The notes under the pieces are model-generated. The model saw nothing but the letters and a program-made list of their open reading frames with translations. It searched no databases and was not told the DNA's origin. From NCBI GenBank assembly GCA_036517475.1, contig DATDVZ010000008.1, positions 1 through 38,681 of the forward strand: a DNA stretch of 38,681 nt, read 5' to 3'. Shown one piece after another: positions 1,875-38,356 of this stretch (its first letter is position 1; each line of letters opens with the position of its first letter). The DNA is from Minisyncoccota bacterium. GTDB lineage: Bacteria > Patescibacteriota > Minisyncoccia > Phycocordibacterales > Zambryskibacteraceae. The position numbers were made by a program, and so were the translations under genes.

Positions 1875-2363
1875 TTAGGTTTTAATTAAAATTTTTTTGT
1901 TGAGTTCAGAGTTTATTTTTTGAAGAGCTAATTTACCATCTTCAGTAAAAGGCCAAGCGAATAGTGTGGCATCTGTAGTGAGAGGGATTCTGGCAATTGC
2001 TTCAAGTGTAAGTTTTTTTGCATGACCTTGTTTCCTAAATTCTGGGATTGTTATCGCAGAACATAGATAAAGGGCAGAGTAATTTTGGTCAGGCAATGTT
2101 TTCTCAAGGAGTTCTCTTTCTGTTATTTTATCAGCGAGAAAATCATTCACTATATCTTTTGTAGTTGGCACAACCACAACCCAAGAAATTAATTTTCCGT
2201 TTTCTTCCTCGTACAATACACAGTTTTCATTTAATTTTTGAAGTTTATTCCAAGAATCCATTGTTATCGGCATTTGATTGGGGTCATTGCGTGTGCCAAA
2301 AATAGATTCAGCGACCCTCATCATTTCATCAAGAACTTCCTGATTTGGTTTATTACTTATCAT
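1875..2363 (-). CDS. GNAT-like acetyltransferase
   Basis: Acetyl-CoA-binding motif-A-like segment ITIPEFRKQGHAKKL. Confidence 0.6.
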   Translation of the reverse strand: MISNKPNQEVLDEMMRVAESIFGTRNDPNQMPITMDSWNKLQKLNENCVLYEEENGKLISWVVVVPTTKDIVNDFLADKITERELLEKTLPDQNYSALYLCSAITIPEFRKQGHAKKLTLEAIARIPLTTDATLFAWPFTEDGKLALQKINSELNKKILIKT

Positions 2364-2381: not shown

Positions 2382-2425
2382 ATTACTATTCCATACTATG
2401 ATATATCATAGTATGGAATAGTAAT
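2382..2425. repeat. 44 bp perfect palindrome with core TACTATGATATATCATAGTA
   Basis: Perfectly self-complementary from 2382 to 2425; lies between the TrpR-like stop and the GNAT start. Confidence 0.9.
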
Positions 2426-2429
2426 TATA

Positions 2430-2840
2430 TTATTTAGGAGTAGGGAAGAGCAAAAAATAGAGCGGATATTTTTTCTTTAGTCTATAGAGCGCGCTTTTTG
2501 CATAAAGCTTTTTTTCTTTTCTACTTTGAAATTCTTTATTCATCTCTCCAATTGCATTCTCAAAACCAGGAAATTTATCCTTGAGCCACCTATCAACACG
2601 GCCAATAGTATCAAGCCCGACGTGCATTGATTCGGCTATTTCTTCCCATATCTCGCCATTTATTAGTCTTTGCGCGATCAGTATTCTTCTTCCTAGCATT
2701 ATACGTTCACTCTCTGTTAGAAGATCTCGCAATAATAACTTCATTGCTTCTCTTCCATGTATTACAGAAGCTGCCGTATAAAGCGCGTCAAGCGTTTTAA
2801 CTCTATCTTTGTTAGTTAAATTCTCCTTTTTTATTTTCAT
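2430..2840 (-). CDS. TrpR / YerC-YecD family helix-turn-helix protein
   Basis: LLRDLLTESERIMLGRRILIAQRL...EEIAESMHVGLDTIGRVDRWL matches the TrpR-like HTH pattern. Confidence 0.8.
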   Translation of the reverse strand: MKIKKENLTNKDRVKTLDALYTAASVIHGREAMKLLLRDLLTESERIMLGRRILIAQRLINGEIWEEIAESMHVGLDTIGRVDRWLKDKFPGFENAIGEMNKEFQSRKEKKLYAKSALYRLKKKYPLYFLLFPTPK

Positions 2841-2882
2841 TGTGTTGTTTGTATTATTTGGGCGCCTAAATACATAATTTAC

Positions 2883-2960
2883 ATACTATGATATATCATA
2901 GTATAAAATAATTAAAATTAATGGGTATTAAAATACTATGATATATCATAGTATTTTAAT
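2883..2960. repeat. two more TACTATGATATATCATAGTA palindromes
   Basis: 22 bp palindrome at 2883-2904 and 34 bp palindrome at 2927-2960, centres exactly 50 bp apart, upstream of the TrpR-like gene. Confidence 0.9.
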
Positions 2961-3043: not shown

Positions 3044-3076
3044 CCACTTGCAAACTTGGCGGGGGGGGGTAGTATT
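3044..3076 (+). promoter_or_regulatory. sigma70-like promoter with G9 tract in the spacer
   Basis: TTGCAA (3048-3053), 16 bp spacer containing G9 (3061-3069), TAGTAT (3070-3075). Confidence 0.6.
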
Positions 3077-3103: not shown

Positions 3104-3469
3104 ATGTCAGCAGAAAAATACACACCATCGGATGAAGAAGTGCGTCTGGGGCAAGAAATGTCAGATCTGGTAAAACGTGAAAATGACAAGGAACATCTCA
3201 AGAAGTCAGGAATTTCATGGCTAAAAGAAGAAAAGGCAAGGGTGGAACGCGAGAGTTCGAGCGAGATTGATTATCTTTCTGCGGTTCATGGCACAACAGG
3301 ACAGACACGAGCACAACAAAAATATAGACTTGGTTTGCTTGATGAAGTATTGAAAGAACTTCAACTTGAAAGTGATATCAGGAGAGAAGCAGAAAGCATG
3401 AGTGTTGGTGAATTGGAAAAGTATATCTCTCTTTTTACGAGAATACTCCAAAAGAAGAAAGGAAACTAA
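3104..3469 (+). CDS. hypothetical protein (charged, helical)
   Basis: 121 aa ORF downstream of the poly-G promoter. Confidence 0.7.
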   Translation: MSAEKYTPSDEEVRLGQEMSDLVKRENDKEHLKKSGISWLKEEKARVERESSSEIDYLSAVHGTTGQTRAQQKYRLGLLDEVLKELQLESDIRREAESMSVGELEKYISLFTRILQKKKGN

Positions 3470-3519: not shown

Positions 3520-4470
3520 TTACTTCGCATGTAAATGCATGTAAATATCTTCTAGGGCGCGGACGGCGTCGCCGGCGGCGATGTTATTTTGATGGTAAAG
3601 GGTGTCAGTTGAATCGCCAGCTGCCCAGATTCCTTTTGTTTGCGTCTGGCTTGTTCTTGGGTCAATTATTATCTGACCGTATTGATTTAAAGGCACCAAA
3701 TCCTTCACATAATTTGTTGAAGGGATAAGACCGATTTCAACAAACACTCCCTCAGCTGGTATTTCCACCGTTCTTTTACTTATTTCATCTTGATAAATAA
3801 CTGAAGTCACAAATTTATTACCTTTTATTTCAATAGGGGTAGCATTTTCATAAGCCTTCATTTTAGGATTTTCCAGAACCTTTTTTATTGTAACTGGATC
3901 AGCGCGGAAAGGGCCGTGTGTAATTAAAGTTACACTTTTGCAATATGCCAGAAGCTGGGCGGCAGTTTCAAAACCTGCATTCCCCCCGCCTATAACAACA
4001 ACATCTTTATCTGCAAATAAGGGACCATCGCAGGATGCGCAGTATGTAATGCCTTTGTTTTCAAATTCTTTTGCTCCCGGAATTTGGAGTTTTCTTCTCT
4101 GACTTCCGGTTGCTATTAGAATGGTCTTAGCTTCATATTCTGATTTATCAGTTTTAATTGTAAAAGTTGCTTGCCCTGAGCCCGTCGAAGAGTTTTTTGT
4201 TACTTTTAGTACTTTTTCTCCTGCATGAATATCAACTAAATCTGCCGCATATGCCCTCAAGTGCTTTTCAAGAATTTCGGCAAATTCTAGACCACTTATT
4301 TTCACCGTTCCTATCCAATTTTCAATCCCCATTGATTCCGTGCTTTGCCCACCCCAGCTTTCAGTGATGAATAGAGTTTTAAGGTGTTTTCTGGCTGCAT
4401 AAACGCCGGCTGCCACACCGGCCGGCCCACCCCCTAAAATAGCAAGATCATACATAGAAGTAAGAATCAT
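3520..4470 (-). CDS. trxB: thioredoxin reductase-like FAD/NADPH disulfide oxidoreductase
   Basis: GGGPAG FAD motif, YCASCDG redox pair, VIGGGNAG NADPH motif, C-terminal WAAGD. Confidence 0.85.
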   Translation of the reverse strand: MILTSMYDLAILGGGPAGVAAGVYAARKHLKTLFITESWGGQSTESMGIENWIGTVKISGLEFAEILEKHLRAYAADLVDIHAGEKVLKVTKNSSTGSGQATFTIKTDKSEYEAKTILIATGSQRRKLQIPGAKEFENKGITYCASCDGPLFADKDVVVIGGGNAGFETAAQLLAYCKSVTLITHGPFRADPVTIKKVLENPKMKAYENATPIEIKGNKFVTSVIYQDEISKRTVEIPAEGVFVEIGLIPSTNYVKDLVPLNQYGQIIIDPRTSQTQTKGIWAAGDSTDTLYHQNNIAAGDAVRALEDIYMHLHAK

Positions 4471-22245: not shown

Positions 22246-22548
22246 ATGAATGTTATAGGTCAAATTTGTCCAGCTATTCTAGGTTCACCAGTTGCAAGGC
22301 TTCAGGATCTGATACTTAAAATTAGCTGCTTAATTGGTCCTTTAATCAATGTTCTTATTGGTTTGGGTTTGGTATTTTTTCTCTGGAATCTGGCAGTATT
22401 TATTCTTAAAGCCGGCGATGAGGAAGCAAGAAAAAATGCAAAAAAAATGATGTTTTGGGGGATTTTAGCCATTTTCATAATGGTTTCAATCTGGGGGATA
22501 ATAAAAATACTTCAAGGGGAATTTGGCATTGAGGCTGTTAGTTTTTAG
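22246..22548 (+). CDS. TrbC/VirB2-like pilin 4
   Basis: AGDEEARKNAKKMMFWGILAIFIMVSIWGII. Confidence 0.8.
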   Translation: MNVIGQICPAILGSPVARLQDLILKISCLIGPLINVLIGLGLVFFLWNLAVFILKAGDEEARKNAKKMMFWGILAIFIMVSIWGIIKILQGEFGIEAVSF

Positions 22549-22577
22549 TTTTAATTTGGCTATATTTTTTGGAAATT

Positions 22578-22617
22578 ACTTGGACATCCGATGTCCTTGG
22601 ACATCGGATGTCCAAGT
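22578..22617. repeat. REPIN-like inverted doublet of the RAYT-associated REP
   Basis: ACTTGGACATCCGATGTCC-tt-GGACATCGGATGTCCAAGT, 19 bp perfect arms. Confidence 0.85.
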
Positions 22618-22707
22618 GGGTGGTACTATCCACAACGACTAGAATTTTGGCTAAAAGATGCTATTATTTATTAATACCCAAAGGTATTAATAATTAATTA
22701 TTAGTTT

Positions 22708-23073
22708 ATGAAAATGAAAAAATTAGTCTTGATTTCTGGCGGTATCACAGCTGCCCTTTTGCCTGTAATGGCATTTGCTCAGCAATTTACATATGCTTCC
22801 TCGTTTCTTACAACGTTGAGCAATCTTATCAATCAGGCAACACCTATAATTATAGGGCTGGCTTTACTTTTCTTCCTTTACGGTTTGATGACATTTATTC
22901 TTGCTGCGGGAGATGAGGAAAAGAGCAAGAAGGGTAAGAAAATCATGGTATGGGGCATTGTTGCTCTGTTTATCATGGTTTCAATCTGGGGAATTATCCG
23001 ATTGCTCCAGACAAATACCGGTGTTCCGGGTGATGTTAATGCTCCGACGGTGCCAAGACCCCCAACAGGCTAA
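22708..23073 (+). CDS. TrbC/VirB2-like pilin 5
   Basis: Signal peptide ending MAFA; AGDEEKSKKGKKIMVWGIVALFIMVSIWGII. Confidence 0.8.
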   Translation: MKMKKLVLISGGITAALLPVMAFAQQFTYASSFLTTLSNLINQATPIIIGLALLFFLYGLMTFILAAGDEEKSKKGKKIMVWGIVALFIMVSIWGIIRLLQTNTGVPGDVNAPTVPRPPTG

Positions 23074-23084
23074 TTCTCTAAGGC

Positions 23085-23357
23085 ATGAATGGGTACACTG
23101 TTGAACCGCTACTACGCAAAATAAACGCGGCAATATTAAATCCGCTTATAACCTTACTTTTTGCAATTGCGCTTTTGTATTTTCTATACGGAGTTTTTCA
23201 GTTTGTGAGAAAAACAGATGACACTAAGGCAATGGAAGAAGGAAAACAGGCTATGCTGTGGGGGATAATCGGAATGTTTATAATGTTTGCAGTTGCCGGT
23301 ATCATTGGTGTTGTTCTTAATACGTTTGGAATAAGCACTGACTATCTTCCATTCTAG
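23085..23357 (+). CDS. TrbC/VirB2-like pilin 6
   Basis: TDDTKAMEEGKQAMLWGIIGMFIM between TM helices. Confidence 0.75.
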   Translation: MNGYTVEPLLRKINAAILNPLITLLFAIALLYFLYGVFQFVRKTDDTKAMEEGKQAMLWGIIGMFIMFAVAGIIGVVLNTFGISTDYLPF

Positions 23358-23450: not shown

Positions 23451-24413
23451 ATGATAATGGGAAAATTCAACCGGGGGGATTCTGATACACTTTTCATTAT
23501 AGGAATTGCAGCGCTACTTTTGGTATTTTTGATTGGCGGAAGAAACTTTCTCAATATTGGTGGGACTGGTTTTCTTTCAATTCCTGGAGGCCCATCTGTT
23601 TTTGAGTCTGTTTCAAGAAGCGATCAGTCTATTCAGGACCCAAATAGCTCCTATTGGCGAGGAAAAGTCAGTTTGAGTCCCGGCAATGTCTATGAAATAC
23701 AGCCATATTTGGAATACGTGACTATTAATGCGGGGGATGTGGGGGAGAGTGGAGTAAATATTTCCGGCTGGTATCTTACAAACAATAAGGGGCAACGCCG
23801 AGTGCAGTTTGGTGGAAATGATCAGTATTTTGCCTCTGATAAAGCAGTAATACCTTATGTTGCCAAACTTTTTTTAACTAACAATAGTAACTATCTTTCA
23901 CCAGTAGTTCTGCATTCCGGAGGAAGTGCGATACTTATAACAGGAAGTTTTGGCAACAGAAGTCCATTTCAAGTTACCAGTTTCCAAGTGAATAAATGCA
24001 GCGGCTATTTGGAAAATGTGACTGGTTACGATTTTCATCCACCACTTTCTCAAAGCTGCCCTGTTCCCTCAAAGGAAGTTGGTGCTGATGCACTTCAAAG
24101 TGATTGTTATGATTTTGTAAAAAGAATGCCTTATTGTCACAAACCCGAAATGGATAAATTTGTTAAGGTCAATGGTGTGGAAGAAAGCGGTTATGTTGAC
24201 GGAGTCGGAGGTCTATCAAACCAGTGTAAAACATACCTTCAAGCGCATTACTCATATGAAGGGTGTCTTGCGTATCACGCAACTGAAGAAGATTTTTATA
24301 AGAACGAATGGAGAATATTTCTAAATAATTCCTGGGAGCTCTGGGGCAAGGATAGAGAAGTTATAACTCTTTATGATAGCTCGGGTAAAGTTGTAGATCA
24401 GGTTTCATATTAA
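23451..24413 (+). CDS. membrane-anchored extracellular protein with a lamin-tail-like domain
   Basis: N-terminal TM helix, EYVTI...VNISGWYLTN, Cys-rich middle, C-terminal WGKDREVITLYDSSGKVVD. ATG 23457 may be the true start. Confidence 0.7.
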   Translation: MIMGKFNRGDSDTLFIIGIAALLLVFLIGGRNFLNIGGTGFLSIPGGPSVFESVSRSDQSIQDPNSSYWRGKVSLSPGNVYEIQPYLEYVTINAGDVGESGVNISGWYLTNNKGQRRVQFGGNDQYFASDKAVIPYVAKLFLTNNSNYLSPVVLHSGGSAILITGSFGNRSPFQVTSFQVNKCSGYLENVTGYDFHPPLSQSCPVPSKEVGADALQSDCYDFVKRMPYCHKPEMDKFVKVNGVEESGYVDGVGGLSNQCKTYLQAHYSYEGCLAYHATEEDFYKNEWRIFLNNSWELWGKDREVITLYDSSGKVVDQVSY

Positions 24414-24468: not shown

Positions 24469-24492
24469 TTTACTATGATATATCATAGTAAA
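24469..24492. repeat. distal TACTATGATATATCATAGTA palindrome
   Basis: 24 bp perfect palindrome in a convergent intergenic region. Confidence 0.9.
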
Positions 24493-24537
24493 TCATTATT
24501 AACACAAAGCAGACAGTAAATTTATTATCAAGTAAAA

Positions 24538-24559
24538 AGGCAAGCCTATTGGCTTGCCT
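24538..24559 (-). terminator. intrinsic terminator
   Basis: AGGCAAGCC-tatt-GGCTTGCCT plus a T-run on the minus strand. Confidence 0.7.
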
Positions 24560-24566
24560 TGTAAAG

Positions 24567-25799
24567 TTACGTTAGAGGTATTTTCATTAGCGCATAGCGA
24601 ATTCTGACAACTGTGTCAGAATTTGCTTTGAACGTCAGTGATTTGATGTCTCTTCCCAATTGAAGCTTTGGGCTTCCGGGGATGAAAAGAACACTATCCC
24701 CATTCTGCTTCCTAATCCAATAGGGTATTGAATCCAAACTTATGATCTGGATTTTATATTTGCGTGGTATTTCAACCGCATTACTCCACTCCATCCCTAC
24801 GATAATTACCGTGTCAATCATGTAATTACCGGCGATATATCGATCAGGAAGTCCATATCCAATGGGGCGTTTGTTATAGTGTGCGTACCAGCACCAGGAG
24901 GATTTCTGCCAGTCCTCGTAGCCGGTCTTACCTTCCTTGCGTTTCTCTCTGACAATGTGCTCCGCAAACGAAGCATTGCCATCAAGTGTATGAATATCAA
25001 TGCCTGCTGACTTTGCGCTATCTCCCCAGATCTTTTCGTTGATCTGGAAAATTCCCACATCATTGGGGTCAGTACCGCGAAAGACGGTTTTTCCATCATC
25101 ATCATATTGCCTGAAATGAGATTCACAGGCCGCAATGTTACGCAGTACTGTATCTGACACCAGAGCAAAAAGAGAATCACGGTCAGGTCCCAAAAAATGT
25201 CTCCAAGGGCTTTCCGTGAATTTCTCTGCCACGCTCGCGCTTCTCACCGGCACTGTGCTTGAAGGGGGAACCTGTTGTAGCTGTTGCAGTTTTTTTCCGT
25301 ATAGTAAAATCATGACAACAGGGATAACAAACGCCCCAGCAATAATCAGACCATCTTTCCACTGCTTTCCTGCCTTAGTTGCAGACTGTTTTGCAGGCGC
25401 AGCTGTTGCTGAAACTGGAGTGGCACTAGCCGAAGTTTTTGATTTTCTGAAAGCGTAAACCAGAATCAAAATGACGATAGTTACTGCTAACGCAATCAGC
25501 CCAAACTTACCAACTGATGACCAGTTGATTATCGGCCAATCAATCCCTTTTAACTTCTCAATGAGATAGACTACACTTACTGCAACCAGAACCACAACGA
25601 TGATGGCGTTTCGCCGCCATCTTGGCAGAAGTTTCTTTTTCATTTTGTAACCCAAAGCCTTTCTCCAGAGAATATATTGGTATGTCCTCTTATGAACTGT
25701 GAATCTTGCTTTGGTGTAGAGCCATTGGCGGCGAAGATAGCGAGTAAATTGATGTCGCCACATTTGGCCCAACAGAAAAAGCGAATTGGATAAATCCAT
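24567..25799 (-). CDS. multi-pass membrane protein with a lysozyme-like / lytic transglycosylase domain
   Basis: Three TM helices, then IAACES (catalytic Glu), VGIFQIN and a W..S..CW motif; AAGGAGG RBS. Confidence 0.75.
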   Translation of the reverse strand: MDLSNSLFLLGQMWRHQFTRYLRRQWLYTKARFTVHKRTYQYILWRKALGYKMKKKLLPRWRRNAIIVVVLVAVSVVYLIEKLKGIDWPIINWSSVGKFGLIALAVTIVILILVYAFRKSKTSASATPVSATAAPAKQSATKAGKQWKDGLIIAGAFVIPVVMILLYGKKLQQLQQVPPSSTVPVRSASVAEKFTESPWRHFLGPDRDSLFALVSDTVLRNIAACESHFRQYDDDGKTVFRGTDPNDVGIFQINEKIWGDSAKSAGIDIHTLDGNASFAEHIVREKRKEGKTGYEDWQKSSWCWYAHYNKRPIGYGLPDRYIAGNYMIDTVIIVGMEWSNAVEIPRKYKIQIISLDSIPYWIRKQNGDSVLFIPGSPKLQLGRDIKSLTFKANSDTVVRIRYALMKIPLT

Positions 25800-28169: not shown

Positions 28170-28250
28170 TGGGCGGGAGAGGACTTGAACCTCCACTCCT
28201 TGCGGAACTAGCTCCTAAGGCTAGCGCGTCTGCCATTTCGCCACCCGCCC
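28170..28250 (-). tRNA. tRNA-Leu(TAG)
   Basis: Acceptor GGGCGGG/CCCGCCC, anticodon arm CTAGC-CTTAGGA-GCTAG, long variable arm, T-loop TTCAAGT; CCA not encoded. Confidence 0.95.
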
Positions 28251-28385
28251 ACCAAATATGAAGGGTTAAATCTGCCACTTGCCCCTTATGAAATCGATCA
28301 CTTGTGATCGTAATTTCATTTTGGGTTTTGTCACCCGCTTGTAAGAAAGAATACTATAACATTTTGAAATATAAAAAAGATCCGT

Positions 28386-28664
28386 TTAGGATCTTTTGGC
28401 TTTTAGGATCATTGTTCTGGTCCCAAGAAAATGTGTGGCAACATTTTTTCTAGGGATACTGAGTCTGTCTACTTCTTGCAAGAGAGCTTTCATACTCTTA
28501 GCTAAAGCTACTGATCTGCCATTATGGAATGCAACATACTGGTTAGGAAACTTTTTTTGAAGTCTTCTTAACTGCGCATCCATTGATCTAACGTTTGCAC
28601 TAAATGATCTTAATTCTCTTGCGACTTGAGACGGATTATCTATAAGATCCTTAAGTCGGTGCAT
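28386..28664 (-). CDS. small protein resembling the DUF5678 family
   Basis: KKFPNQYVAFHNGRSVALAKSMKALLQEV pattern, recalled family resemblance only. Confidence 0.6.
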   Translation of the reverse strand: MHRLKDLIDNPSQVARELRSFSANVRSMDAQLRRLQKKFPNQYVAFHNGRSVALAKSMKALLQEVDRLSIPRKNVATHFLGTRTMILKAKRS

Positions 28665-28770
28665 TTTTTCTCCCGGAGATTTCTAGGTTAAAAGTATTAA
28701 AAATTGTAACTAAAGTCAATTTGAAATCTTGATAAACCTCAACTTTTTTCGTATTCTTTAAACCTGAATT

Positions 28771-28792
28771 TTATGGCCACGTAGCCAAGTAG
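28771..28792 (+). repeat. duplicated 5' end of tRNA-Cys
   Basis: TTATGGCCACGTAGCCAAGTAG is identical to 28877-28898. Confidence 0.85.
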
Positions 28793-28880
28793 CATGAGCG
28801 TAGCGAATTATAAAAAAGCCAGCAAGCTGCTCAAGGTTAGTATTGTGGTAGGATTTTGTTGATTGTAATAAGTTAATTAT

Positions 28881-28955
28881 GGCCACGTAGCCAAGTAGTA
28901 AGGCAGCTCTCTGCAAAAGAGCTACACGCGAGTGCGATTCTCGCCGTGGCCTCCA
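28881..28955 (+). tRNA. tRNA-Cys(GCA)
   Basis: Acceptor GGCCACG/CGTGGCC, GCTCT-CTGCAAA-AGAGC, U discriminator, encoded CCA; variant T-loop TGCGATT. Confidence 0.9.
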
Positions 28956-29087
28956 GGCAACGGAGCAAGCAAATTGATTTGCTTGCGTCGAGAATCGCAG
29001 GCCGGAATATCTTGCCACAGGCAAGAATGAGGCGGGGTCGCGAGTTTGCATTGCAAAACTTGTGACCGATTCTCGCCGTGGCCTCCA
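28956..29087 (+). repeat. tRNA-Cys 3'-associated structured element
   Basis: 22 bp direct repeat 28935-28956 = 29067-29088 (132 bp period); inverted T-arm copy at 28989-28999. Confidence 0.85.
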
Positions 29088-29168
29088 GCCCGAGTGGTGG
29101 AATGGTTTACACGCACGACTTAAAATCGTGTGCCGCAAGGCATGTGAGTTCGAGTCTCACCTCGGGCA
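29088..29168 (+). tRNA. tRNA-Leu(TAA)
   Basis: Acceptor GCCCGAG/CTCGGGC, CACGA-CTTAAAA-TCGTG, long variable arm, T-loop TTCGAGT. Confidence 0.95.
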
Positions 29169-29171
29169 TTT

Positions 29172-29476
29172 CCGCCCATAGCTCAGCTGGTCCCGTACCA
29201 AAACCTTTTAAAAGGAATTTAATTTGTATAATATTGTATTTTATGTAATTTTCCGTCCCTGTGTCCACCCATAGCTCAGGCTGGTAGAGCAGTTGCCTCT
29301 TAAGCAAACGGTCGCAGGTTCGAATCCTGCTGGGTGGACACAGGGACGGCAACAAAAAATTATTTAGATAAATTTGGTACGGGATATATGCCGCAGTTGC
29401 GTCCCTGCCCCGTAGCAAGCTTCGCTTTGCTTCGGGGTTAAGCAAACGGTCGCAGGTTCGAATCCTGCTGGGCGGA
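29172..29476 (+). pseudogene. interrupted outer tRNA-Lys scaffold enclosing the intact tRNA-Lys
   Basis: 5' part CCGCCCATAGCTCAGCTGGT (29172-29191) and 3' part (29438-29476) have mutually complementary acceptor arms CCGCCCA/TGGGCGG. Confidence 0.65.
29265..29338 (+). tRNA. tRNA-Lys(CTT)
   Basis: Acceptor CCACCCA/TGGGTGG, GTTGC-CTCTTAA-GCAAA, GCAGG-TTCGAAT-CCTGC. Confidence 0.9.
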
Positions 29477-38273: not shown

Positions 38274-38356
38274 GCGTCGGTGGTAGAGTGGACAATTACA
38301 ACAGACTGTAAATCTGTCGCCTTCGGGCTTCGTTGGTTCGAATCCAACCCGGCGCA
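38274..38356 (+). tRNA. tRNA-Tyr(GTA)
   Basis: Acceptor GCGTCGG/CCGGCGC, ACAGA-CTGTAAA-TCTGT, long variable arm, T-loop TTCGAAT. Confidence 0.95.

What the first reader, a model, noticed from the sequence alone, without database searches (positions are those of the whole stretch)
2382..2960. TrpR-like gene bracketed by perfect TACTATGATATATCATAGTA palindromes
Seen: a 44 bp perfect palindrome just after the stop codon, and 22 and 34 bp copies upstream with centres exactly 50 bp apart. All share a 20 bp core. Established: TrpR binds palindromic operators containing ACTAG half-sites; these contain ACTAT. Inference: these are the cognate sites of this orphan TrpR/YerC protein (autoregulation plus control of the downstream GNAT gene). 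Alternatively, gene and palindromes form a selfish module organised like the RAYT/REP locus.
Basis: partly seen in the sequence, partly recalled or inferred. Interest (0 to 1): 0.7.

Follow-up and report, generated by a model that had tools for sequence, protein, structure and literature searches.

The report
Repressor gene bracketed by private operators
A small TrpR-type DNA-binding protein of an ultra-small (CPR/Patescibacteria) bacterium lies between exact copies of the 20-bp palindrome it almost certainly binds; nearly all its relatives share this layout with their own palindromes, following a readable amino-acid-to-base code, so this is a new variant of a familiar self-regulating switch.

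Summary
There are perfect palindromes of 44, 22 and 34 bp around the TrpR-like gene (2430..2840, minus strand). In 78 of 84 homologous loci from many CPR lineages the gene is bracketed by two copies of a ~20-bp palindrome. The centre (G/C)ATATAT(C/G) is fixed and the arms are private to each paralog. The arms covary with three HTH residues that align with TrpR's DNA contacts R69, I79 and A80: Asp77 goes with G at bp 4, Arg66 with G at bp 9, Arg76 with G at bp 8.

Upstream copies overlap promoters of apparently leaderless mRNAs, which points to autorepression. The downstream copy is anchored to the gene's own stop codon, not to the GNAT-like gene. It is therefore a family-wide second operator (looping or roadblock; undecided).

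Further copies form small per-genome sets, some written in frame inside trmD and miaA. The RAYT/REP-like reading is mostly rejected. Two features remain unexplained: palindromic symmetry that extends past any plausible footprint, and the many sites inside genes. I found no published description. Verdict: new variant of a known kind.

The parts
2430..2840 (-). TrpR-like regulator gene (136 aa). It belongs to a CPR subfamily with a conserved C-terminal extension.
   Evidence: ORF. PF01371, 47.4 bits against a cut-off of 27. Below the TrpR and YerC equivalog cut-offs. The same 136-aa gene is called on public contigs.
2583..2651 (-). Region encoding the helix-turn-helix (residues 64-86). The specificity codons are E66 (2643-2645), L76 (2613-2615) and D77 (2610-2612).
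   Evidence: AF2 helices 65-72 and 76-88. hhalign places 66=TrpR R69, 76=I79, 77=A80, T78=T81, R81=R84. These are the strongest covariation positions.
2433..2564 (-). Region encoding the C-terminal extension (residues 93-136; family consensus ...LYATSALYRLKKKYPLHFLLFPTPK). TrpR and HisR lack it. It is a candidate oligomerisation module.
   Evidence: Nearly invariant columns. Confident helices 93-115, 117-124 and 126-131. PDB relatives align only to about residue 103.
2382..2425 (.). Downstream operator: a 44-bp perfect palindrome (core 2394-2413). The outer arms repeat the TACTAT half-site 10 bp further out (2384-2389 and its mirror). It lies between the regulator's stop codon and the GNAT-like ORF's SD and ATG.
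   Evidence: The position matches the family-wide downstream site.
2883..2904 (.). Proximal upstream operator: a 22-bp perfect palindrome with its centre 53 nt before the ATG.
2927..2960 (.). Distal upstream operator: a 34-bp perfect palindrome with its centre 103 nt before the ATG. It overlaps the only promoter-like matches that point toward the gene.
24469..24492 (.). Fourth copy, with no regulator gene nearby: a 24-bp perfect palindrome between the convergent genes 23451..24413 (+) and 24567..25799 (-).
1875..2363 (-). Downstream co-directional ORF (162 aa, weakly GNAT-like), probably gated by the 44-bp operator.
   Evidence: The SD-like AAGGA and the ATG follow the palindrome by 18 nt. Control is inferred, not shown.
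3104..3469 (+). Divergent 121-aa ORF that shares the 263-bp intergenic region holding both upstream operators. It may be co-regulated.
   Evidence: No Pfam match. Co-regulation is an inference only.

Best explanation
The 136-aa protein is a TrpR-fold, presumably dimeric, sequence-specific DNA-binding protein. Its cognate site is the palindrome ATACTATGATA|TATCATAGTAT. Each monomer reads one half-site through its helix-turn-helix: residue 66 reads bp 9 from the dyad, residue 76 reads bp 8, and residue 77 reads bp 4-5. For this protein, E66, L76 and D77 predict A9, non-G8 and G4, which is what the sites show.

Gene and sites form one unit. One or two operators lie in front of the gene. Across the family these overlap the -10 or -35 element of a promoter for a leaderless mRNA, which would give negative autoregulation. 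A second operator lies just behind the stop codon. I infer that the downstream operator cooperates with the upstream one. The mechanism could be protein-mediated looping across the roughly 480-bp gene, or a roadblock that seals the unit against read-through in either direction. In this window it would also gate the GNAT-like ORF immediately behind it. The fourth copy, and the sites elsewhere in related genomes, belong to a small private set of further binding sites.

Shown by comparative computation: the protein-site pairing and its code, the bracket layout, and the promoter overlap. Inferred only: the sign of regulation, looping versus roadblock, any ligand, and the role of intragenic and 3'-end sites.
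For: - Observation: 4 exact 20-mers against 0.00 expected.
- The identical 20-mer occurs in 19 loci of species-representative genomes, nearly all CPR of several classes. In 9 it lies beside a 55-67% identical homolog, and in 3 more beside a distant TrpR-like paralog.
- Bracket: 78 of 84 homolog loci carry both an upstream and a downstream palindrome. Identity of the two 22-mers is 19.3/22 within a locus and 12.0/22 between loci. There are 58 distinct half-sites.
- Paralogs in the same genome have different palindromes in all 12 genomes checked.
- Code: D77 goes with G at bp 4 in 46/46, non-D with C in 27/28. R66 goes with G at bp 9 in 22/22. R76 goes with G at bp 8 in 15/15.
- The three determinants combine freely: 7 of 8 combinations are seen, and the predicted base is the majority in every combination.
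- On a tree built without the HTH they change at least 6-13 times, on the same branches as the bases.
- These residues align with TrpR R69, I79 and A80, and T78 and R81 align with T81 and R84. PMC9413887 lists these as DNA-contacting residues.
- Fold and family.
- Promoter overlap: the distance from palindrome centre to ATG peaks at 17 and at 29-30 nt. A TAnnnT element ends 6-9 nt before the ATG in 48/83 genes. SD-like motifs occur in only 7/83.
- The downstream site is anchored to the regulator's stop (mostly 7-45 nt) whatever the neighbour.
- Centre-to-centre spacing has a median of 480 bp. By my own knowledge this is near the length where DNA looping is easiest and helical phasing matters little.
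- In 11 of 18 genomes with several sites, exactly two of the 18-mer sites bracket a TrpR-like gene and 1-8 more lie elsewhere.
Against: - There is no binding experiment.
- In this window the proximal operator is centred 53 nt from the ATG. That is not one of the family's modal positions, and the promoter-like matches are not above shuffle expectation.
- No helical phasing between upstream and downstream sites was detected. This neither supports nor excludes looping.
- Tetramerisation could not be tested.
- Of 128 sites with the 18-mer core, 33 lie well inside long ORFs and 25 have only 3' ends within 150 nt (10 of them between convergent stops). This is unusual for a promoter-directed repressor.
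- Palindromic symmetry continues beyond the core with arbitrary sequence, at about 0.7 probability per added pair, up to 56 bp. A protein footprint does not explain that.
- Sites are near-perfect over 18 bp, more information than a 1-Mb genome needs.
- Seven of the 18 multi-site genomes showed no adjacent TrpR-like gene with my queries. These are incomplete MAGs, and the queries may not reach more divergent regulators.
Confidence: 0.72

Rival explanations
1. The protein binds its sites as above, but they are not mainly promoter operators. Instead the protein and its few near-perfect sites would form a roadblock, insulator or bridging network that punctuates transcription or organises DNA. Sites lie at gene ends, inside genes and in arrays, and the self-bracket is only the most conserved instance. 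MatP/matS-like bridging and LacI-type roadblocks are functional analogies.
For: A quarter of the 18-mer sites are inside ORFs and a fifth are at 3' ends. In-frame sites recur in trmD (34 of 121 sequences: 120 orthologs plus the query; 16 palindrome variants) and in miaA. L194 holds an array of eight copies spaced 109-195 bp (488 bp across the gene itself) beside another TrpR-like gene. The downstream site usually faces a convergent gene. A conserved extra C-terminal helical module is present.
Against: 38 of 128 sites lie within 150 nt upstream of a start codon, and the upstream sites overlap promoter elements. Nothing shows bridging or oligomers. Several paralogs with different specificities per genome fit poorly with a single architectural role.
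Confidence: 0.2
2. Selfish palindrome module, RAYT/REP-like or like the Rickettsia palindromic elements. Under this reading the palindromes spread to new places, including into genes, and the enclosed protein is their recognition or maintenance factor.
For: The gene is flanked by its own repeats, and the repeats covary with the protein. Palindromes sit in frame inside conserved genes. In trmD they lie in a loop that is 43-46 residues long in the short form and up to 75 with the insert. Symmetry extends with arbitrary sequence. Sites are exact copies rather than degenerate.
Against: No nuclease, transposase or recombinase domain is present; the only match is Trp_repressor and the fold is all-helical. 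Copy number is only 2-10 per genome. Each orthologous group keeps its chromosomal neighbours: Obg/SecA, GrpE-DnaK/MurA, ValS/TsaD (gene names are my reading of the sequences). In miaA the site replaces existing codons without any length change, so it arose in place. Protein and palindrome are absent from viral contigs.
Confidence: 0.08
3. The palindromes act as RNA hairpins in the transcript, as terminators or stabilisers, and the link to the protein is secondary.
For: The predicted hairpins are stable: -27.3 kcal/mol for the 44-mer and -9 to -15 for the others. The 44-mer is flagged terminator-like on the plus strand. Downstream copies have somewhat longer arms than upstream ones.
Against: A T-run follows only 11 of 80 downstream sites. 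Mismatches show no clear G.U preference: 43 G.T, 29 A.C, 79 other. With leaderless starts the upstream copy is not transcribed at all. The Arg-to-G and Asp-to-G:C covariation with HTH residues has no RNA-hairpin explanation. The two copies of a locus share sequence, not merely pairing potential.
Confidence: 0.05
4. Excisable cassette: the two palindromes are recombination sites in the style of dif, lox or pdif modules, and copies without a regulator nearby are empty or solo sites.
For: The anatomy fits: two binding arms around an AT-rich 6-bp centre, a gene between two identical sites, and single sites elsewhere.
Against: No recombinase lies nearby. The centre is itself symmetric, so it gives no direction. 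Host Xer-type sites would be the same for all cassettes in a genome, yet the sites differ between paralogs. Synteny is stable.
Confidence: 0.04

Closest known systems
E. coli Trp repressor (TrpR) and its operators
   Same: Both belong to Pfam family PF01371 and share the fold. The operator is a ~20-bp palindrome, and the regulator has an operator at its own gene. The DNA-contact positions coincide: R69, I79 and A80 align with residues 66, 76 and 77, and T81 and R84 are conserved as T78 and R81. When residue 66 is Arg the base at bp 9 is G. By my own knowledge this mirrors the Arg69-G9 contact of the TrpR-operator crystal structure.
   Different: It scores far below the TrpR equivalog cut-off (28.3 against 67.25 bits). 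It carries about 40 extra conserved C-terminal residues. The operator sequence differs, and the shared ACTA is shifted by 2 bp. A second operator lies behind the gene. There are many paralogs with private specificities. No link to tryptophan genes was seen, and the ligand, if any, is unknown.
HisR (YerC of B. subtilis), the TrpR-family histidine repressor (PMC9413887)
   Same: These are the closest solved relatives by sequence (3frw, 3kor, 3g1c). HisR has 20-bp palindromic, lineage-specific operators that were found by comparative genomics, and about half of hisR genes are preceded by their own site.
   Different: It scores below the YerC/YecD cut-off (21.6 against 42.2 bits). HisR proteins are under 100 aa, with consensus site cacTTTAnnnnnnTAAAgtg. 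No downstream site is mentioned in the passages of that paper I read. No his genes lie near the CPR sites.
Lambdoid phage immunity region (OL - cI - OR)
   Same: This is a working analogy only. A repressor gene lies between two operator regions specific to that repressor, and operators and repressor diversify together into non-cross-reacting types. In lambda the two regions cooperate by looping (my own knowledge).
   Different: The fold is different. There is no phage context. There is a single site per side rather than operator triplets, the loop would be about 0.5 kb, and cooperation is untested.
REP elements and their RAYT transposase-like genes
   Same: The gene is flanked by the palindromic repeats it matches, and the repeat type covaries with the gene type.
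   Different: RAYTs are HUH/Tyr nucleases and REPs occur in tens to hundreds of extragenic copies. Here the protein is an HTH protein without a catalytic domain, there are 2-10 copies per genome, some are inside genes, and the chromosomal position is stable.
Rickettsia palindromic elements (in-frame palindromic inserts in conserved genes)
   Same: Palindromic DNA is tolerated in frame in loops of essential genes (trmD).
   Different: RPEs are over 100 bp and are not known to me to pair with a dedicated binding protein. Here the inserts are 18-34 bp and match a resident regulator's specificity (L188 against L035, same genome). In miaA there is no insertion at all.

Membership tests
Pfam Trp_repressor (PF01371) | Profile score at or above the gathering cut-off | tested here: met
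   47.4 bits against 27, E=2e-12, residues 16-100. Profile hits to PDB TrpR and YerC-type chains.
TrpR proper (NCBIfam TIGR01321, equivalog) | Score at or above the curated cut-off | tested here: not met
   28.3 bits against 67.25.
TrpR proper | L-tryptophan corepressor and control of trp/aro genes | not testable with these tools
   No trp or aro genes lie next to any site examined. Ligand binding cannot be computed here.
YerC/YecD = HisR (NCBIfam TIGR02531) | Score at or above the curated cut-off | tested here: not met
   21.6 bits against 42.2. Length is 136 aa against under 100 aa.
TrpR-family operator logic | A ~20-bp palindromic operator read by the HTH, with the contact residues of TrpR | tested here: met
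   The palindrome is conserved to about +-9/10 bp. Residues 66, 76 and 77 covary with bp 9, 8 and 4 and align with R69, I79 and A80. This is comparative evidence, not biochemical.
TrpR-family operator logic | Homodimer binding | not tested
   Only a monomer model could be built. The dyad symmetry of the sites implies a dimer.
RAYT/REP | HUH/Tyr (Y1 transposase-like) catalytic domain in the flanked gene | tested here: not met
   Trp_repressor is the only Pfam hit. The model is all-helical.
RAYT/REP | Many dispersed, mostly extragenic repeat copies | tested here: not met
   4 copies in 38.7 kb. 2-10 copies of the 18-mer per multi-site genome. 33 of 128 sites are intragenic.
RAYT/REP | Gene flanked by its own repeat type | tested here: met
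   78 of 84 loci.
Intrinsic terminator | Stable hairpin followed by a T-tract on the transcribed strand | tested here: not met
   11 of 80 downstream sites have TTTT within 12 nt. In the window the T-rich tail is on the plus strand only.
Operator-bracketed, looping repressor (lambda CI-like logic) | Operators of the same specificity on both sides of the repressor gene | tested here: met
Operator-bracketed, looping repressor (lambda CI-like logic) | Cooperative binding or looping through oligomerisation | not testable with these tools
   Median spacing is 480 bp with no phasing signal. The C-terminal module has unknown function.

The most novel reading that the evidence does not exclude
CPR bacteria may carry a family of self-contained operator-gene-operator cassettes whose protein specificity and sites co-diversify quickly, like immunity or incompatibility determinants. 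On this reading the near-perfect palindromes are also written into essential genes (in frame in trmD and miaA), gene ends and arrays. The system would then be a programmable roadblock, insulator or bridging network, or a partly selfish palindrome-protein partnership, rather than ordinary metabolite-responsive promoter control. The unexplained growth of palindromic arms would be part of its biology.
Probability: 0.22. Interest if true: 0.85.

Novelty: new variant of a known kind. Interest (0 to 1): 0.72.

Why it matters
CPR/Patescibacteria make up a large share of bacterial diversity, and I know of little work on how they regulate genes. Four literature searches found no description of this family or its sites.

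- The result identifies what may be one of their main transcription-factor families: 1717 cluster representatives at E<=1e-3.
- It supplies each member's binding site directly from the gene's own flanks.
- It gives a simple, chemically sensible recognition code (Arg with G, Asp with the G:C pair) that can predict sites genome by genome.
- That makes regulons in uncultivated organisms directly testable.
- It offers a natural library of dozens of apparently non-cross-reacting repressor/operator pairs of about 140 aa and 20 bp.
- The operator behind the stop codon, the leaderless promoter design and the in-frame operators inside tRNA-modification genes are features a specialist would not expect from a TrpR-type protein.

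Tried and rejected
- **Chance:** rejected (234 perfect ATATAT-centred palindromes with arms of at least 9 in 991 kb, against 0.2 expected).
- **Known RNA family:** Rfam finds only five tRNAs in the window.
- **Terminator or RNA hairpin:** rejected by T-tract counts, mismatch types and the untranscribed upstream copies.
- **Fixed -35 box at constant distance from the palindrome:** none found.
- **Helical phasing of upstream and downstream sites:** none found.
- **Downstream site stronger than upstream site:** no difference within +-9 bp.
- **Downstream site as the operator of the next gene:** its distance is anchored to the regulator's stop, not to the next start, and the next gene is usually convergent.
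- **Phage or plasmid origin:** no relatives and no palindrome in IMG/VR. The window neighbourhood is chromosomal, with ftsA, ftsZ, ybeY and pth.
- **Single-protein search for related loci:** found only 4 loci; the alignment-based search was needed.
- **Foldseek:** gave only weak E-values, because the monomer of an intertwined dimer is extended, but ranked TrpR/YerC structures first.
- **Common functional theme for sites without a regulator nearby:** only partly found. tRNA position-37 enzymes and DNA-repair genes recur, but the set is mixed.
- **Literature search for leaderless translation in CPR:** nothing usable.
Full report
**1. The observation**

The 20-mer TACTATGATATATCATAGTA occurs exactly at 2394, 2884 and 2934. 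No copies with 1-3 mismatches exist, and shuffles gave 0.00 expected matches.

The perfect palindromes are 2382-2425 (44 bp), 2883-2904 (22 bp), 2927-2960 (34 bp) and 24469-24492 (24 bp). The two upstream centres are exactly 50 bp apart.

The gene is on the minus strand (2430..2840, 136 aa). It is a member of Pfam Trp_repressor (47.4 bits against 27). It falls below the curated cut-offs for TrpR proper and for YerC/YecD. On public contigs the same gene sits in a chromosomal neighbourhood with pth, ybeY, ftsA, ftsZ and a thioredoxin-reductase-like gene.

The 44-bp palindrome starts 4 nt after the stop codon. It ends 18 nt before the ATG of a weakly GNAT-like ORF (23.9 bits, below the cut-off). 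Its outer arms repeat the TACTAT half-site one helical turn (10 bp) further out.

**2. The same site elsewhere**

The exact 20-mer occurs in 19 loci of species-representative genomes. Nearly all are CPR: Woese-, Giovannoni-, Zambryski- and Kaiserbacteria, other Parcubacteria, and MAGs labelled Saccharibacteria. In 9 loci it lies directly beside a 55-67% identical homolog of the window protein. In 3 more it lies beside a distant TrpR-like paralog. A metagenome scan gave 81 more loci, about a third of whose sites are adjacent to such genes.

**3. The bracket is a family property**

The protein belongs to a large family of 137-150 aa proteins. There are 1012 word-sharing hits and 1717 representatives of 50%-identity clusters at E<=1e-3. 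The family has a strongly conserved C-terminal extension that TrpR and HisR lack.

I fetched 80 loci with an alignment-based search and looked for palindromes at both gene ends.

- 78 of 84 genes have one palindrome centred 6-107 nt before the ATG and another mostly 7-45 nt after the stop.
- The centre (G/C)ATA|TAT(C/G) is almost invariant.
- The arms differ between loci (58 distinct 11-nt half-sites) but agree between the two copies of one locus (19.3 of 22 against 12.0 of 22).
- All 12 genomes with two or three paralogs have different palindromes for each paralog.
- Relatives at 29-36% identity are also bracketed, by palindromes of a different type (L021, L022).

In 991 kb of non-redundant fetched DNA there are 234 perfect palindromes of this type against 0.2 expected. 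Of these, 166 lie within 200 bp of a TrpR-like gene.

**4. A recognition code**

The strongest mutual information between alignment columns and half-site positions falls on three residues.

| Residue (window numbering) | Rule | Count |
|---|---|---|
| 77 | Asp goes with G at bp 4 | 46/46 |
| 77 | Any other residue goes with C at bp 4 | 27/28 |
| 66 | Arg goes with G at bp 9 | 22/22 |
| 66 | Asp or Glu goes with A at bp 9 | 39/44 |
| 76 | Arg goes with G at bp 8 | 15/15 |

- The three determinants occur in 7 of the 8 possible combinations, and the predicted base is the majority in every combination.
- On a neighbour-joining tree built without the HTH they change at least 6, 11 and 8 times, on the same branches as the bases. 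The signal is therefore not a single inherited event.
- A profile alignment to E. coli TrpR puts 66, 76 and 77 on R69, I79 and A80. The conserved T78 and R81 fall on T81 and R84.
- PMC9413887 names exactly these residues among the six DNA contacts of TrpR.
- Arg pairing with G is the textbook contact. By my own knowledge Arg69 contacts G9 in the TrpR-operator crystal, which puts the two operators in the same register.
- The window protein (E66, L76, D77) predicts A9, non-G8 and G4. Its sites read ATACTATGATA, as predicted.

**5. Promoter context**

- No -35 box keeps a fixed distance from the palindrome.
- The distance from palindrome centre to ATG has modes at 17 and at 29-30 nt.
- SD-like motifs are rare (7/83), while a TAnnnT element ends 6-9 nt before the ATG in 48/83 genes. 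This is the signature of leaderless mRNAs.
- At d=17 the outer part of the palindrome's right arm (for example TAGTAT) is that -10 element.
- At d of about 30 the left half (TTGATA) sits where a -35 would be, and a separate -10 follows.
- Binding would occlude the promoter in either design, which gives negative autoregulation. This is an inference.
- The upstream neighbour is divergent in 51 of 77 loci. In the Obg group the short intergenic region consists largely of the palindrome, so one site could serve both directions.
- This window is atypical (d = 53 and 103). The only promoter-like matches toward the gene overlap the distal palindrome and are no more frequent than in shuffles. The local promoter is unresolved.

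**6. The downstream site**

It follows the regulator's stop codon closely whatever comes next. The next gene is convergent in 58 of 79 loci, and where it is co-directional the distance to its start varies from a few nt to over 250 nt. The site therefore belongs to the regulator unit, not to the GNAT-like ORF. In this window it would nevertheless gate that ORF.

- It is not a classical terminator (T-tract in 11/80).
- Mismatches show no clear G.U preference.
- It is as perfect as the upstream site.
- Centre-to-centre spacing is 446-663 bp, median 480, without helical phasing.

I consider cooperative binding with looping, or a roadblock sealing the unit, the two live mechanisms, and I cannot decide between them. 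The confident extra C-terminal helices are a candidate oligomerisation module, but only a monomer could be modelled.

**7. Sites away from the regulator gene**

The 18-mer core occurs at 128 distinct sites in species-representative genomes, with 2-10 per genome in those with several. In 11 of 18 such genomes exactly two sites bracket a TrpR-like gene and 1-8 lie elsewhere.

By crude ORF calling:

| Location | Sites |
|---|---|
| Within 150 nt upstream of a start codon | 38 |
| Well inside an ORF of at least 150 aa | 33 |
| Only a 3' end within 150 nt, or between convergent stops | 25 |
| Adjacent to a TrpR-like gene (motif-based count) | 27 |
| Other, contig edge, or near the 5' end of a called ORF | 5 |

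Recurrent places are inside miaA, upstream of uvrB and ruvA, near recG, MGMT-like genes, an epimerase, dCMP deaminase and DHFR, and after lepA, secF and secA. The gene names are my reading of the sequences.

Intragenic sites are always in the one open frame, which encodes T-M-I-Y-H-S.

*trmD.* The 120 closest CPR orthologs plus the query show a variable loop that is 43-46 residues long in the short form and up to 75 with an insert. 34 of these 121 sequences carry a hexapeptide xyIYy'x' whose codons can be reverse complements. There are 16 variants (TMIYHS, TTIYRS, DLIYQV, GLIYQS, SSIYGT and others), against 0 of 164 control contexts. Several of them encode palindromes found flanking regulators elsewhere.

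*miaA.* The same kind of site replaces existing codons with no length change, so it arose in place under selection.

**8. Unexplained**

- Palindromic symmetry continues outside the conserved core with arbitrary sequence, at about 0.7 probability per extra pair instead of about 0.27. It reaches 44-56 bp, even inside trmD. A protein footprint does not explain this. Selection for DNA or RNA hairpins, or symmetrisation by template switching at a strong palindrome, are candidates.
- L194 shows an array of eight copies beside a third TrpR-like subfamily gene.
- I do not know why tRNA position-37 enzymes carry operators.

**9. Comparison and verdict**

It works like a TrpR/HisR-type repressor with a 20-bp palindromic operator at its own gene, and it is a member of the Pfam family. 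It is not TrpR or YerC/HisR proper.

The features I found undescribed, within the searchable library, are:

- the operator on both sides of the gene across a whole family;
- the rapid, code-like diversification into private specificities;
- the leaderless promoter design;
- the C-terminal module;
- the in-frame intragenic sites.

The RAYT/REP reading fails on the catalytic domain, on copy number and on mobility. Its intuition that gene and palindromes form one co-evolving module is correct.

I rate this a new variant of a known kind. About one chance in five remains that the system is something more unusual: a roadblock or bridging network, or a partly selfish palindrome-protein partnership.

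Noticed in passing
window 24469-24492: A fourth exact copy of the palindrome (24-bp perfect) lies between convergent genes, 57 nt after a 320-aa ORF and 45 nt before what looks by eye like a GC-rich terminator hairpin (24536-24562). No TrpR-like gene is nearby.
   Followed up: partly
window 22246-23357: Three tandem small membrane proteins match T4SS_pilin (PF18895). They are followed by a 320-aa ORF with a sub-threshold Lamin-tail-domain match (26.1 bits against a cut-off of 34.3), a 410-aa ORF with no Pfam hit, and an SPFH/Band-7 protein.
   Followed up: partly
window 3048-3075: A run of nine G (3061-3069) fills the 16-nt spacer between a TTGCAA and a TAGTAT hexamer upstream of the divergent 121-aa ORF. 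This is the layout of a slipped-strand phase-variable promoter.
   Followed up: no
L194 3814-5179: A third TrpR-like subfamily gene (3862..4278, minus strand) is bracketed by GGCACTATGATATATCATAGTGCC. Six more copies follow in about 900 bp of non-coding DNA at 109-195 bp spacing, next to recG.
   Followed up: partly
L188 3269-3302; L191 3226-3243; L150 2121-2142: CPR trmD genes carry in-frame palindromes of different specificities in one variable loop. In these loci trmD lies in rpsP-khpA-trmD, followed after about 260-290 nt by a fused rpoB-rpoC gene of about 2290 aa.
   Followed up: yes
L169 1087-1106; L109 1157-1176; P0241-P0360: miaA orthologs carry the palindrome (TMIYHS, DMIYHI and others) at one position of a helix with no change in length. 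About 12 of 120 orthologs do so.
   Followed up: yes
L006, L009, L249, L015, L007, L012, L258, L077: DNA-repair genes recur next to sites of the ACTATGATATATCATAGT class: uvrB divergent at 51 nt, ruvA, recG, and MGMT-like genes. This hints at a damage-related gene set in some lineages. The gene names are my reading of the sequences.
   Followed up: partly
L001 5189-5208; L231; L237; L246: The same 18-20-mer also occurs in a few Firmicutes MAGs (Erysipelotrichaceae, Ruminococcus). In L001 it is a 30-bp palindrome between what I read as gyrA and serS. It could be chance in AT-rich DNA or a real site of a Firmicute YerC-type protein.
   Followed up: no
L003 2031-2050; L176 2377-2396: The palindrome lies in frame immediately after the YADD motif of a reverse-transcriptase-like ORF in two diverged genomes.
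   Followed up: no
window 28170-29338 and 38274-38356: Five tRNA genes are present, four of them clustered.
   Followed up: no
window protein residue W85 (codon 2586-2588): An invariant Trp aligns with the TrpR position I know as Ser88, next to conserved equivalents of TrpR T44, R54, T81 and R84 (T42, R52, T78, R81). My recollection is that these TrpR residues line the tryptophan pocket, so the protein's own Trp might fill that pocket. This is speculation and was not examined in the model.
   Followed up: no
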